A stretch of DNA of 64,000 nt, taken from IMG/VR virus record IMGVR_UViG_3300045988_042567, positions 1 to 64,000 of that record. The stretch is one strand, 5' to 3'. This document shows, one piece after another, positions 138 through 8,390 of this stretch (position 1 is the first letter of the stretch; every line of letters begins with the position of its first letter). The DNA is from a virus. The notes below the pieces were generated by a model. That model was not told the DNA's origin, ran no database searches, and was given only the letters and a program-made list of their open reading frames with translations. The translations under genes and the position numbers were made by a program.

Positions 138-241
138 GAACCAGTAGCTCAGTTGGTTGTTAACGAAGGCGAAGCCTTTGGCAGCTGTGGTAGAGCGTTC
201 TCATCCGAGAAAGGTCAGTAGTTCGAATCTACTCTGGTTCA
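138..241 (+). ncRNA. tRNA-like element; not a functional tRNA
   Basis: The acceptor arms GAACCAG and CTGGTTC are complementary. There is a D stem GCTC/GAGC and a T arm AGTAG-TTCGAAT-CTACT. About 33 nt are inserted in the D loop, and the anticodon arm is reduced to TTCTC-ATCC-GAGAA, a tetraloop. Confidence 0.45.
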
Positions 242-569
242 CATCTTCTATGATAAATCTTCTTTTTATATTATTTAGCATCATAATGGGTACGCCCGGA
301 GACTAATGCAGAGCATCTCTTATACCAAACAGTATGACCTTGATACTGGAGAGATGTCTTATCGTGAGATAAGGCAAAGGAGTGTGGCACAGGAAGGTGC
401 TATTTTACGTTTAAATTTAAGTTAATAAATACAGTAAGTTAAAATTATTCATTCTCCCGTGATGGGAGCGGCATCATGACTAAGCCTTTACGTGGCGATG
501 CTATAAGTAAGCTAATAAGCTGAAACTAATTAGTCACTAACAATTAGAACCTCACAACGTATAGGTAAG

Positions 570-5742: not shown

Positions 5743-5975
5743 TGTCACATGCCGAAATATTCAATGCAGTAATGACTGCTCTTGATACGTACAACGAAGG
5801 TTGGAAACCTAACTGGGAGGATGGAACTTATAAATACTGCATCACTAGATGTGGTAACAATATAATTCCAATAACATCTCGATTCGATTATCATTTTATT
5901 TCTTTTAATAGTGCTAGTGTTAGACGGAAGTTCATGAAGGAGCAATGTAAGTTGCTTAAGGAGTTCTTCCGTTAG
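5739..5975 (+). CDS. hypothetical protein
   Basis: 78-aa ORF. Confidence 0.4.
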   Translation: MMSHAEIFNAVMTALDTYNEGWKPNWEDGTYKYCITRCGNNIIPITSRFDYHFISFNSASVRRKFMKEQCKLLKEFFR

Positions 5976-6002
5976 CATTCTGTGGCTATATTCATCTTTC
6001 AT

Positions 6003-6650
6003 TTTATTAATAAGCTTTTAAGTCTGAAATGGGTACGCCAGTGGCACAGGAGGATACTGGAAGCTTTGGGTTGTTTCCCCACTCCTAGCATGAGAGTATA
6101 ATCATGCTACTATGGGCCATACATGGAATTGATTCATAATGACTGGGTAGTAAGACGTGTAGAGTTCGTACCAACTCTTATAAAATGATACACAAATTTT
6201 AAGTGGCAACACTGAAGTAAGAATGGCAGCGTAAGCTGTGGCTTATCGATATTATATTGATTAAGTCGGGTTAATCGGAGAGACCTAGAGACAGAAGAGG
6301 TGTGGGAAGAAGCATTATAGAGCAGCCCACTTAACTTGAACGCCAAAGGTTAGTAAAGCTGAAATCTCCACTACCTATCTATGGGTTACAAATAGACGTT
6401 CTCCAACGTAAATGGAGTGGTGGCGTGGGACTTCGGTCACTCCTAATTTTGATAGTTTGTAAGTTAGCTTTAAGTGTACTGGCTTGATCACTGTGATTTA
6501 ATTGCCTGGTTCTGAGTAAGACTAATAAAACTGTCTACATGCTGAACTCAACAGCTGATGTAATAAAATAGAGACACACGTAATCTTGTTATTTAGAGTT
6601 GTGAAGACCGCGGTTCGAGTCCGCGATGGTCCACTTATTAACTAATTAAA
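6003..6650 (+). ncRNA. ORF-free structured region of about 650 nt that ends in a tRNA-like T arm and acceptor 3' half (6609-6633); candidate large ncRNA or intron-containing tRNA
   Basis: No ORF of 60 aa or more. The region is visibly G/C-enriched relative to the surrounding coding sequence and contains many local hairpins. It ends CGCGG-TTCGAGT-CCGCG-ATGGTCC-A. Its 5' part shares the motif AATGGGTACGCC...GTGGCACAGGA with positions 288-400. Confidence 0.35.
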
Positions 6651-6660
6651 TCACTTTGAC

Positions 6661-7461
6661 ATGGAAAGAGGTAACATTGATTTTGGTAAACTTCTAAATG
6701 GAGTTACCACAGAGAACGTTTATGTTCTTACTAATGATAACCGAAAGGTTATCGAAGCTTTAAGGTTCTTACCCGGAAATAGAGAAATTAAACCTAAGAA
6801 GGTTGAGGACTTGGTGAAAGCTTATCAAAACAAGGAGTATATTCCTCCTATTCTAGTATCAACTCCTTTCAGATTTGTAACTGAAGGTAATCACAGACTC
6901 GCAGCTGCTTTGGAATGTCTTAAAAGGAATATTCCATTTACATTAAGAGTATACTTCTATGCCGACGAATCTGCATTAGAAACTGCCCGTCTCATTAATA
7001 ATACTCAGAATAGATGGAAGGCACATGACAAACTTATGTCTTATGTATATGAGAAGAAAGAACCATATATGATACTAAAACAGTTTATGGATAAGTACCC
7101 ATCTATATTTATTCGTAATGGTGAGTATATGGTACAGGCTGGCTTAAGTCTTCTTTCTGGAGGTAGGACAAGAGCATCTTTAAATACTGCATTCTCCAAC
7201 GGTAAGTTATTAATTAACGAAACTCAGTTGGAATTAGGAGAAGCTATGATGGATGAATTGTCGTTAATCTCGGAAGTATTAGGAACTCAATCTGTATACG
7301 CTAGAGACCACAGTACTGGTTGGATGAAAGCACGTACAAGACTTGGCATTCCTTTTACTAAGTTCATAGTAAGACTTAAAAGAAGAGCTACAACTTGGGA
7401 AGAGCCCAAGGACACTACTGAAGCATGGTTTAATATGTATATGAAGATAGCAAGTTTATGA
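6661..7461 (+). CDS. ParB-like nuclease-domain protein
   Basis: Carries the motif FVTEGNHRLAAAL, a ParB/Srx-like G-x-x-R signature. Confidence 0.5.
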   Translation: MERGNIDFGKLLNGVTTENVYVLTNDNRKVIEALRFLPGNREIKPKKVEDLVKAYQNKEYIPPILVSTPFRFVTEGNHRLAAALECLKRNIPFTLRVYFYADESALETARLINNTQNRWKAHDKLMSYVYEKKEPYMILKQFMDKYPSIFIRNGEYMVQAGLSLLSGGRTRASLNTAFSNGKLLINETQLELGEAMMDELSLISEVLGTQSVYARDHSTGWMKARTRLGIPFTKFIVRLKRRATTWEEPKDTTEAWFNMYMKIASL

Positions 7462-8156: not shown

Positions 8157-8183
8157 CTTAATCTTAGATAATTCTAAGCGCAA

Positions 8184-8390
8184 ACTTGGTCTGATGAACT
8201 AAGAGTATGTTCCGGAGCATACTTTGACTTAAAGGCGTTATAAAGAGTTGAAACCTGTACTATTAGAATAATGGAAAGTTCGCCCAACTAGGACTTGGGT
8301 GGCGATGGTTTGAGTCCATCATAGTATTGTGTAAGAGAGAATCTGCACGGTCTACGTTATATAATCAGCACGTAGATAGGTCATCAAGTG
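8184..8390 (+). ncRNA. candidate Y-RNA-like (YrlA-like) structured RNA enclosing a tRNA-like domain
   Basis: The 5' segment ACTTGGTCTGATGA (8184-8197) can pair with TCATCAAGT (8381-8389), leaving a GGTC bulge. Enclosed are a tRNA-like module at 8257-8328 and two further hairpins. The module has acceptor arms GTACTAT/ATAGTAT, a T arm GATGG-TTTGAGT-CCATC, and an anticodon-position loop CTAGGAC. Confidence 0.3.

What the first reader, a model, noticed from the sequence alone, without database searches (positions are those of the whole stretch)
6003..6650. 650-nt ORF-free structured region sharing a motif with positions 288-400
This is the longest stretch without an ORF in a genome that is otherwise gene-dense. 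It is visibly richer in G/C than the coding DNA and is full of local hairpins. It ends in a perfect tRNA T arm plus an acceptor 3' strand (CGCGG-TTCGAGT-CCGCG-ATGGTCC-A, 6609-6633), but no canonical 5' half lies directly upstream. A possible 5' acceptor partner, GGGCCAT, lies at 6113-6119, about 480 nt away.

Its 5' end shares AATGGGTACGCC...GTGGCACAGGARG...GATACTGGA with positions 288-400. That region lies just downstream of the tRNA-like element at 138-241 and contains a GGAGACTAATG segment reminiscent of a group I intron P7 strand.

Candidates are an intron-containing or permuted tRNA, or a large ornate phage ncRNA of the GOLLD or ROOL kind, which I recall as sitting next to tRNAs in phages. 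I looked for a tmRNA tag-peptide frame and for RNase P consensus blocks and found neither.
Basis: seen in the sequence. Interest (0 to 1): 0.55.

Follow-up and report, generated by a model that had tools for sequence, protein, structure and literature searches.

The report
Oversized phage tmRNA gene with leader motif
The "ORF-free structured region" is a phage-encoded transfer-messenger RNA gene, the RNA that rescues stalled ribosomes and tags their unfinished proteins; it is a known kind of gene in an unusually long form, and it is preceded by a small conserved RNA hairpin motif of unknown function that has a second copy near the start of the window.

Summary
Window 6114-6633 (+) is a one-piece tmRNA (ssrA) gene. 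Rfam RF00023 matches it end to end (58.3 bits, cutoff 47); ARAGORN missed it.

I recovered 65 distinct relatives from about 95-270 kb viral contigs, most from one IMG metagenome. All keep a 9-11 codon frame ending (R/K)MAA, an A four bases before the resume codon, and covarying helices.

The family is 507-601 nt without an intron, with a conserved extra domain of about 175 nt. One near-identical relative carries an 865-nt group I intron with an HNH-type endonuclease gene in the T-loop.

The motif shared with 288-400 is real but separate from the tmRNA. It is a stem / conserved internal loop / hairpin RNA element (6012-6066; long copy 277-401) with compensatory changes and no Rfam match. Only 17 of 66 distinct tmRNA upstream arrangements have it.

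The intron-tRNA, permuted-tRNA, GOLLD/ROOL and group I readings are rejected. Verdict: known kind, new large variant, plus an uncharacterised leader motif.

The parts
6114..6633 (+). One-piece tmRNA (ssrA) gene, 520 nt from G1 to discriminator A73. CCA is not encoded (next bases CTT), as for the window's 26 tRNA genes.
   Evidence: Rfam RF00023 hit at 6114-6636, model positions 1-374 of 374, 58.3 bits against GA 47, E 3e-22. 65 distinct homologues with covarying helices. 3' ends of the tRNA genes checked.
6114..6120 (+). Acceptor stem 5' strand GGGCCAU. It pairs with 6626-6632 (AUGGUCC) and gives G3:U70.
   Evidence: 7 of 7 canonical pairs in 50 of 50 sequences. Five stem variants with compensatory changes. 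G3:U70 invariant.
6609..6633 (+). T arm (CGCGG / UUCGAGU / CCGCG), acceptor 3' strand and discriminator A.
   Evidence: T stem 5 of 5 canonical in 50 of 50 sequences, with seven stem variants. In L004 the T-loop between 6615 and 6616 holds a group I intron.
6133..6160 (+). Helix H2 5' strand. It pairs with 6576-6605 and joins the tRNA-like domain to the mRNA/pseudoknot ring.
   Evidence: Helices 2-4: 24 pairs, 96-100% paired, 12 pairs with changes on both sides.
6161..6193 (+). Candidate pseudoknot PK1. Stem 1 is AGAGUU/AACUCU. The loop is CGUACC, whose G-U-A-C may pair with G-(A)-U-A-C at 6187-6191.
   Evidence: Stem 1 is invariant (helix 5). For stem 2 there is one compensatory change, GUA/UAC to GCA/UGC, in L014, L031, L133 and L114. 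Not resolved in the second PK1 sequence type.
6205..6234 (+). Tag reading frame: resume codon GGC, nine codons GNTEVRMAA, stop UAA. The stop lies in the loop of helix H5 (6226-6239).
   Evidence: Frame conserved in 65 of 65 sequences with 13 tag variants. Indels come in multiples of 3. All tags end (R/K)MAA. A is at -4 in all. Stops are UAA 62, UGA 3, UAG 0.
6268..6443 (+). Conserved extra domain of about 175 nt, closed by GGGUU/(A)CUCC. It contains GGAGA/UCUCC and the hairpin CGUUCUCCA-ACGUAAA-UGGAGUGG. Most of the excess length over ordinary tmRNAs is here.
   Evidence: Rfam skips 133 nt here. Helices 10, 11, 16, 17 and 18 are supported. The hairpin covaries (CUUCA/UGAAG, CCUAC/GUAGG) in members found with an independent search key. 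No other Rfam family matches.
6447..6562 (+). 3' structured region: a domain closed by UUUGAUAGUUUG/AAACUGUC..., then the hairpin UACAUGCU...AGCUGAUGUA, ahead of the H2 3' strand.
   Evidence: Helices 20-23, 82-99% paired. The inner modules are swapped among lineages.
6086..6109 (+). 8-bp hairpin four bases upstream of the tmRNA 5' end. Its loop, GAGUAUAA, contains TATAAT (6097-6102).
   Evidence: MFE -9.7 kcal/mol, z -4.6. Other lineages keep a hairpin at the same place with a similar loop (GAGUAUAA, GAGGAUAA, AGAGAUAA) and different stems. Whether it acts as a promoter -10 element or a leader structure is inferred.
6012..6066 (+). Short copy of the shared motif: P1 AAGCUUUUA(A)GUCU / GGAU(AC)UGGAAGCUU; internal loop GAAAUGGGUAC ... 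ACAGGA; apical hairpin GCC-AGU-GGC (5 bp plus a 5-nt loop in relatives).
   Evidence: Nine variants. 93.1% of cells paired against 29-57% when slid. 5 of 18 pairs change on both sides. The MFE fold agrees. No Rfam match.
277..401 (+). Long copy of the same motif: P1 AGCAUC/GGUGCU, internal loop AUAAUGGGUAC ... ACAGGAA, apical part expanded to about 90 nt (44-98 nt in relatives).
   Evidence: P1 is fully compensated in five sequence versions: AGCAUC/GGUGCU, AGCAUC/GAUGCU, CCACC/GGUGG, UGAAGC/GCUUUG, CCAGGU/ACCUGG. Fold z -2.7. No Rfam match.

Best explanation
Positions 6114-6633 encode a phage-borne one-piece tmRNA.

Proposed mechanism, by homology with bacterial trans-translation (inferred, not tested here):
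1. The precursor is cut at G6114 by host RNase P.
2. It is trimmed at the 3' end and given CCA, like the phage's own CCA-less tRNAs.
3. It is charged with alanine by host AlaRS through G3:U70 and A73.
4. It is delivered with host SmpB and EF-Tu to ribosomes stalled on broken or stop-less mRNAs.
5. Translation resumes at GGC (6205), adds A-GNTEVRMAA and stops at UAA (6232-6234). This frees the ribosome and marks the protein for proteolysis through its C-terminal Ala-Ala.

For the phage this would keep ribosomes available during infection.

The first 110 nt of the finding are not part of the tmRNA. They hold an independent conserved RNA element (6012-6066), a paralogue of 277-401. Its most likely role is a cis-acting leader structure, such as a protein- or ligand-binding site, at the head of a transcription unit. 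In this lineage it has come to lie directly upstream of the tmRNA after loss of a small gene. A hairpin (6086-6109) also lies there, and its TATAAT loop may serve as the tmRNA promoter -10 element. The confidence score below refers to the tmRNA identity. The motif's role carries only about 0.3.
For: Shown:
- Full-length Rfam tmRNA match above gathering score in the window (58.3 bits) and in a 70%-identical relative (68.8 bits).
- Acceptor stem and T arm are 100% canonical in 50 sequences with multiple compensatory variants. G3:U70 is invariant.
- The consensus structure is 93.8% paired against about 40% when slid, with 42 pairs changed on both sides.
- The tag frame is conserved in 65 of 65 sequences, with indels in multiples of 3, synonymous change in the last Ala codon, an invariant (R/K)MAA end, and the stop in the H5 loop.
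- A lies at -4 and U mostly at -5 before the resume codon. This matches the E. coli U85/A86 frame-setting rule (PMC2481249).
- tRNA genes of the window also lack encoded CCA.
- Phage tmRNAs are documented, in 402 of 18,146 phage genomes (PMC9004378).

Motif: covariation in P1 and P2. It lies 60-69 nt upstream of the tmRNA in 15 distinct arrangements and upstream of a small gene in 2.
Against: - No expression, processing, charging or tagging data exist.
- No SmpB gene was found in the window or in about 1.3 Mb of related loci, so host SmpB must be assumed.
- PK1 stem 2 is weakly supported. The canonical PK2-PK4 cannot be mapped one-to-one.
- The Rfam score is modest.
- One relative (L007) has deleted the gene, so it is dispensable at least in that contig.
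- The motif is absent from 49 of 66 distinct tmRNA upstream regions, so it is not required for the tmRNA.
- The window's copy has a shortened apical hairpin (3 bp). In L001 and L003 one of those pairs is broken, which may mean decay.
Confidence: 0.96

Rival explanations
1. A tmRNA-like decoy. The RNA keeps the tRNA-like domain and binds SmpB and ribosomes, but it acts to block or divert host trans-translation rather than to tag proteins, as reported for the CDS-less tmRNA-like RNA of mycobacteriophage DS6A.
For: PMC11915505 cites a phage tmRNA-like RNA that inhibits endogenous tmRNA in E. coli. The extra domain and the unusual RMAA tag show divergence from host forms.
Against: The tag frame, the resume-codon context and the stop codon are conserved in all 65 sequences, with codon-wise indels. 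A decoy would not need them.
Confidence: 0.04
2. An intron-containing or circularly permuted tRNA gene.
For: A T arm and 3' acceptor strand lie far from the 5' acceptor strand. A group I intron does sit in this gene's T-loop in L004.
Against: - There is no anticodon arm.
- The 480 nt between the acceptor strands align to the tmRNA model and hold a conserved tag ORF.
- No group I or II intron model matches in the window.
- The 5'-to-3' order is standard, not permuted.
Confidence: 0.01
3. A large ornate ncRNA of the GOLLD/ROOL/HEARO kind, or a degenerate intergenic remnant.
For: Size, local G+C enrichment and the neighbourhood of tRNAs.
Against: No such Rfam family matches at E<=1. Sequence and structure are conserved with covariation across 66-90% identical relatives.
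Confidence: 0.01
4. For the 5' part only (6012-6066 and 277-401): the shared sequence is the start of a small protein-coding gene or its remnant (AUG at 6029: MGTPVAQEDTG...), not an RNA element.
For: - The AUG is conserved.
- The short-copy indel is 6 nt, so it is in frame.
- In L054 the frame runs on into the 81-aa gene.
- The A/G difference in CAGGARG is synonymous.
Against: - The long copies stop after 4-6 codons (MGTPGD*, MGTP*) yet keep the nucleotide sequence.
- L133 changes most residues (MGRPRNEV...) while keeping the pairings.
- Bases upstream of the AUG covary with bases 30-45 nt downstream.
- The small protein in other lineages starts without the motif.
Confidence: 0.15

Closest known systems
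Standard one-piece bacterial tmRNA (Rfam RF00023; E. coli SsrA)
   Same: - tRNA-like domain with G3:U70 and A73
- T arm UUCGANU and a D-loop analogue
- A long H2 helix
- Tag ORF of about 10 codons that ends in Ala-Ala
- A at -4 before the resume codon, and the stop codon in the H5 loop
   Different: - It is 507-601 nt without an intron. [quoted passage not shown]
- It has a conserved extra domain of about 175 nt instead of a recognisable PK2/PK3.
- The tag ends RMAA, not LAA.
- It is carried on large phage contigs, and only one bacterial-genome contig holds it.
- ARAGORN fails on 11 of 12 loci tested.
Other phage-encoded tmRNAs (e.g. methylophage Melnitz, mycobacteriophages)
   Same: A tmRNA gene sits in a large lytic-type phage genome beside tRNA genes. 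In Melnitz a structured regulatory RNA, a glutamine riboswitch, adjoins the tmRNA (PMC9004378).
   Different: Melnitz's tmRNA is two-piece and permuted. The adjoining element here is a different motif absent from Rfam, and it is present in only about a quarter of arrangements.
Intron-form tmRNA genes (group I intron in the T-loop; PMC11915505)
   Same: Relative L004 has a group I intron (Rfam 94.4 bits) in the T-loop, with -1 U and a terminal G. The window carries the intron-less allele of the same site.
   Different: - The intron sits after the second loop base, which is subsite 3. That subsite has been reported only from Bacteroidia.
- The intron is 865 nt, and the gene is about 1448 bp against 1152 bp for the longest in that database.
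- It carries an HNH/EndoVII-like endonuclease ORF on the opposite strand rather than a LAGLIDADG one.
Small cis-regulatory RNA motifs built as stem / conserved internal loop / variable hairpin (riboswitch aptamers, protein operators, nut/put-type sites)
   Same: The 6012-6066 and 277-401 elements have that architecture, with two copies per genome at the heads of gene or RNA units.
   Different: No sequence or covariance-model match to any Rfam 15 family. The ligand, partner and effect are unknown.

Membership tests
tmRNA (RF00023, standard one-piece form) | Covariance-model match over the whole model above the curated gathering score | tested here: met
   58.3 bits against 47, model positions 1-374 of 374. 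The relative L008 scores 68.8 bits.
tmRNA (RF00023, standard one-piece form) | tRNA-like domain: 7-bp acceptor stem with G3:U70, discriminator A, T arm, no anticodon arm | tested here: met
   All pairs canonical in 50 of 50 sequences, with compensatory variants and an invariant G3:U70. The D-loop analogue UGGAAUUGA aligns to the model.
tmRNA (RF00023, standard one-piece form) | Internal tag ORF: resume codon without a start codon, A four bases upstream, about 10 codons, C-terminal Ala-Ala, stop in helix 5 | tested here: met
   6205-6234, GNTEVRMAA*. The frame and the (R/K)MAA end are kept in 65 of 65 sequences with 13 variants, and A is at -4 in all.
tmRNA (RF00023, standard one-piece form) | Long helix H2 linking the tRNA-like domain to the pseudoknot ring | tested here: met
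   24 pairs, 96-100% paired, 12 with changes on both sides.
tmRNA (RF00023, standard one-piece form) | Pseudoknot PK1 just upstream of the tag | tested here: inconclusive
   Stem 1 is present but invariant. Stem 2 is 3-4 bp with one compensatory change in one sequence type, and no convincing partner in the other type.
tmRNA (RF00023, standard one-piece form) | Three downstream pseudoknots PK2-PK4 | tested here: inconclusive
   The region is structured and covaries, but it is organised as a hairpin, a large closed domain, a second domain and a hairpin. Rfam leaves 133 nt unaligned. Pseudoknots were not resolved.
tmRNA (RF00023, standard one-piece form) | Works with SmpB; alanylated; stable processed RNA | not testable with these tools
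   No SmpB homologue in the window or loci, so host SmpB is assumed. No expression data.
Intron-containing or permuted tRNA | Anticodon arm and D arm reconstituted after intron removal or permutation | tested here: not met
   No tRNA call here by ARAGORN or Rfam. The intervening 480 nt are tmRNA body.
GOLLD / ROOL / HEARO / RNase P / group I intron (in the window) | Match to the family covariance model | tested here: not met
   cmscan of 5950-6700 and of 1-600 at E<=1 returned only tmRNA, one tRNA and two chance-level hits.

The most novel reading that the evidence does not exclude
These phages carry a distinct class of giant tmRNAs. The conserved extra domain of about 175 nt and the RMAA tag would give the RNA a phage-specific function, such as recruiting a phage or host factor or sending tagged proteins to a different fate. 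One possible link is to the extra load of stop-less translation created by the phage's amber-suppressor tRNAs. Separately, the twin stem / internal-loop motif (6012-6066 and 277-401) would be a new ligand- or protein-sensing regulatory RNA class.
Probability: 0.2. Interest if true: 0.65.

Novelty: new variant of a known kind. Interest (0 to 1): 0.4.

Why it matters
Phage tmRNAs are known but little studied. This family is common in large viral contigs, most of them from one IMG metagenome. More than 90 contigs were recovered with two short search keys. The closest GenBank relatives are unannotated phage scaffolds from human faeces. The standard tRNA/tmRNA finder misses the family, so it is probably unannotated wherever it occurs.

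At 507-601 nt these appear to be longer than essentially all catalogued intron-less tmRNAs, and they carry a conserved new domain. That makes them a natural test of how much extra cargo the tmRNA scaffold tolerates and what that cargo does.

The intron-bearing allele extends the rare 'subsite 3' T-loop intron, so far seen only in Bacteroidia, to a phage, with an HNH-type homing endonuclease. Together with Shine-Dalgarno-free gene starts, this points to a Bacteroidota host.

The twin leader motif is a candidate new cis-regulatory RNA. None of this changes the basic verdict: the region is an ordinary kind of gene that was misread.

Tried and rejected
- ARAGORN on the window found 26 tRNAs and no tmRNA. 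It found the tmRNA in only 1 of 12 related loci, and with a wrong tag.
- The alternative tag frame GCA ACA CUG AAG UAA (ATLK*), one base downstream, was rejected. Relatives conserve the ...RMAA* frame instead.
- HDV-like (theta), hammerhead and other self-cleaving ribozyme readings of the shared motif were rejected. Theta ribozymes abut tRNAs within 5 nt (PMC10879173), whereas this motif starts about 36 nt after the tRNA-like element. No ribozyme family matched in Rfam.
- A Y-RNA/Ro reading is unsupported. It was prompted by a weak TROVE-like hit for ORF 8529-10247, but there was no Pfam hit above cutoff and no PDB sequence hit.
- A riboswitch-like switch between the motif's CAGGAG and a downstream CUCCUG was rejected. 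That pairing partner belongs to the tmRNA-proximal module and is missing where the motif precedes the small gene.
- Complementarity between the motif's GGUACG and the PK1 loop CGUACC does not covary (L054 and L014), so it is treated as chance.
- A collection scan for the motif pattern returned about 25 unrelated contigs, roughly the number I estimated by hand to arise by chance. These were discarded.
- One 19-mer hit (L011) was a chance match inside a coding region.
- The sigma-70 promoter and terminator scan gave nothing above shuffled expectation near the gene.
- TAG recoding inside the window was tested and not seen.
- Pfam on neighbouring ORFs gave no hits, and PHROGs found only a weak ParB-like match for the downstream ORF 6661-7461.

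Full report
**What is at the coordinates**

The region 5976-6660 has no + strand ORF of 60 aa or more. Its G+C is 40.1% against 36.2% for the window, the 95th percentile of 648-nt windows. It is not the longest ORF-free stretch, because two tRNA arrays are longer.

A gathering-threshold Rfam scan of the whole window places a full-length tmRNA match at 6114-6636 (+). It covers model positions 1-374 of 374 and scores 58.3 bits against a cutoff of 47. A permissive scan of 5950-6700 adds nothing else of note. ARAGORN reports 26 tRNAs in the window but not this gene.

**Anatomy of the gene (position 1 = 6114)**

- The acceptor stem is GGGCCAU/AUGGUCC, with G3:U70 and discriminator A. CCA is not encoded: the next bases are CUU. 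None of the window's 26 tRNA genes encodes CCA either.
- A D-loop analogue UGGAAUUGA follows the acceptor 5' strand.
- A long helix H2 pairs 6133-6160 with 6576-6605.
- A PK1-like hairpin AGAGUU-CGUACC-AACUCU comes next.
- The tag frame is UUAAGU|GGC AAC ACU GAA GUA AGA AUG GCA GCG UAA (6205-6234), which reads GNTEVRMAA*. Its stop codon lies in the loop of helix H5.
- After the tag come a hairpin (6240-6267), a closed domain of about 175 nt (6268-6443), a second structured region (6447-6562), the H2 3' strand, and the T arm.

**Relatives**

GenBank phages hold only two unannotated scaffolds from human faeces. One of them (L008, 70% identity) has a 561-nt tmRNA scoring 68.8 bits with the tag AEIAPVRMAA*.

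I scanned IMG/VR with a 19-mer from inside the gene and then with an independent key from the tag/H5 region. This returned more than 90 contigs of about 95-270 kb, most from one IMG metagenome (taxon 3300045988). Ends defined with nhmmer gave 65 distinct full-length sequences of 507-601 nt, 66-90% identical to the window.

Only one bacterial-genome contig holds the 19-mer. It is a 29.8-kb contig of a MAG labelled "uncultured Clostridium sp.". The family therefore looks phage-borne.

**Tests of the tmRNA reading**

- Acceptor stem and T stem are canonical in 50 of 50 sequences, with five and seven compensatory variants respectively. G3:U70 never changes.
- On 25 representatives the RNAalifold consensus is 93.8% paired, against 38-45% when partners are slid. 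It has 42 pairs changed on both sides, and the H2 helices are the strongest.
- The hairpin CUCCA/UGGAG was invariant in the first set only because it was the search key. In members found with the second key it covaries (CUUCA/UGAAG, CCUAC/GUAGG).
- The tag has 13 variants of 9-11 codons: GNTEVRMAA, GNTTYRMAA, ATYSEVRMAA, AEIAPVRMAA, AERSDYRMAA, GETEGYLRMAA and others. Indels come in threes. The last Ala codon varies synonymously. The end is always (R/K)MAA. Stops are UAA (62) or UGA (3), never UAG.
- The resume codon is GCN or GGN. It is always preceded by A at -4 and usually by U at -5. These are the positions of E. coli A86 and U85, which set the frame (PMC2481249).
- PK1 stem 2 is supported by a single compensatory change, and PK2-PK4 could not be mapped. 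I score both as inconclusive.
- No SmpB homologue is present in the window or the loci, so the host protein must be assumed.

**How it most likely works**

By homology (inferred), the RNA is processed by RNase P and 3' trimming, receives CCA, and is charged with Ala. With SmpB and EF-Tu it enters stalled ribosomes, which then translate GNTEVRMAA and terminate. The phage would gain a larger ribosome-rescue capacity during infection.

A link to the phage's amber-suppressor tRNA (12768-12840) is attractive, because read-through creates stop-less translation. It is untested, and TAG recoding is not visible inside this window.

**What is unusual**

- *Length.* A recent 97,179-sequence tmRNA database excluded all non-intron forms by combining a 500-bp size cutoff with a bit-score cutoff. 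It lists 1152 bp as the longest gene of any form (PMC11915505). This family is 507-601 nt without an intron.
- *An intron allele.* The near-identical relative L004 carries an 865-nt group I intron (Rfam 94.4 bits) inserted as GCGGUU|intron|CGAGUCC. That is after the second T-loop base, with -1 U and a terminal G. The intron holds a 194-aa HNH/EndoVII-like endonuclease ORF on the opposite strand. By the database paper's numbering this is subsite 3, so far seen only in Bacteroidia. The gene totals about 1448 bp.
- *Host hint.* Only 3 of 55 ORFs have a Shine-Dalgarno-like motif upstream, below the background rate. This also fits a Bacteroidota host (inference).
- *Detection.* ARAGORN finds the gene in only 1 of 12 related loci, and there with a wrong tag.

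**The shared motif**

The two long shared words are real. In relatives they belong to a discrete RNA element:

P1 - NNAAUGGGUA(C/G) - P2 hairpin - ACAGGA(A) - P1'

- The short copy (6012-6066) has nine variants. Its cells are 93.1% paired against 29-57% when slid, and 5 of 18 pairs change on both sides.
- The long copy (277-401) keeps the same internal loop. Its apical part is expanded by 44-98 nt, and its P1 is fully compensated in five different versions.
- Neither copy matches any Rfam family.
- The third shared word, GATACTGGA, is not homologous between the copies.

The motif is not part of the tmRNA. It lies 60-69 nt upstream in 15 of 66 distinct upstream arrangements, precedes a small 81-aa gene that itself precedes the tmRNA in 2, and is absent in 49. 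The window lacks that small gene.

A small-ORF reading (MGTP...) is unlikely. The long copies stop after 4-6 codons, and L133 changes the residues while keeping the pairs.

I take the motif to be a cis-acting leader element of unknown partner, at low confidence.

**The hairpin next to the tmRNA**

Between the motif and the tmRNA lies an 8-bp hairpin (6086-6109, z -4.6). Its loop GAGUAUAA holds TATAAT, which ends 11 nt before G1. Other lineages keep a hairpin with a similar loop and different stems. It may be the promoter -10 element or a leader structure (inferred).

**Verdict**

The region is a tmRNA gene, which is a known kind of gene and is also known in phages (PMC9004378). Here it takes a new, unusually large form, and it sits next to an uncharacterised conserved RNA motif.

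Noticed in passing
window 138-241: This tRNA-like element (Rfam tRNA, 43.5 bits) is a disrupted paralogue of a CUA (amber-suppressor) tRNA. The intact form is in relatives (L001 1687-1760, L002, L007). The window copy has a 35-nt insertion in the D-loop and a shortened anticodon loop.
   Followed up: partly
window 12768-12840: An intact tRNA with anticodon CUA (called 'Pyl' by ARAGORN), which is an amber suppressor. ORFs inside this window show no sign of TAG recoding.
   Followed up: partly
window 8164-8261 and 8529-10247: A RAGATH-34 RNA (86.7 bits) overlaps the start of tRNA-Pro (8257-8328). It lies just upstream of a 572-aa ORF with a PHROG 'RNA-binding protein' hit (1e-8) and a sub-threshold DUF2828 hit, which I recall as a TROVE/Ro-like family. 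This may be an RNA-protein pair.
   Followed up: partly
L004 9094-9958 (insertion at window 6615/6616): An 865-nt group I intron in the tmRNA T-loop of a near-identical relative. It carries a 194-aa HNH/EndoVII-like endonuclease ORF on the opposite strand (L004 9295-9879). The window carries the empty site.
   Followed up: yes
L007 about 7269 (window 6033 to about 7117): A relative has deleted the whole tmRNA gene and the 5' half of the downstream ParB-like gene. The deletion lies between two AATGG microhomologies, one of them inside the short motif.
   Followed up: partly
L051 (contig IMGVR_UViG_3300045988_063986): The tmRNA loses its 3' acceptor strand right after the T stem (CCCGTT|GGCGTTAC...). 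This suggests a rearrangement or integration event at the tmRNA 3' end.
   Followed up: no
L054 2517-2759 (-), L008 2603-2857 (+) and others: A small 81-86 aa protein gene of unknown function lies directly upstream of the tmRNA in 19 of 66 distinct arrangements. It is absent from the window.
   Followed up: partly
window about 455-520: A conserved block lies downstream of the long motif. It has the hairpin CUCCCGUGAUGGGAG, then GGCAUC...GAUGCU, with a possible 15-codon ORF (MTKPLRGDAISKLIS). It is conserved at the nucleotide level in the L010 group, while the flanking AT-rich DNA is not.
   Followed up: no
L007 1178-1251: A RAGATH-1 hammerhead ribozyme (80.8 bits) in a relative, at a position that would fall beyond the left edge of the window.
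   Followed up: no
window 10355-10424 and 21949-21999: Two weak Rfam tRNA matches (40.6 and 31.2 bits) that ARAGORN does not call. They may be degenerate or unusual tRNAs in the tRNA arrays.
   Followed up: no
whole window: Only 3 of 55 ORFs of 120 aa or more have a GGAG/GAGG/AGGA motif 4-20 nt upstream of the first ATG, against a 13% background. Translation starts look Shine-Dalgarno independent, as I recall for Bacteroidota and their phages.
   Followed up: partly
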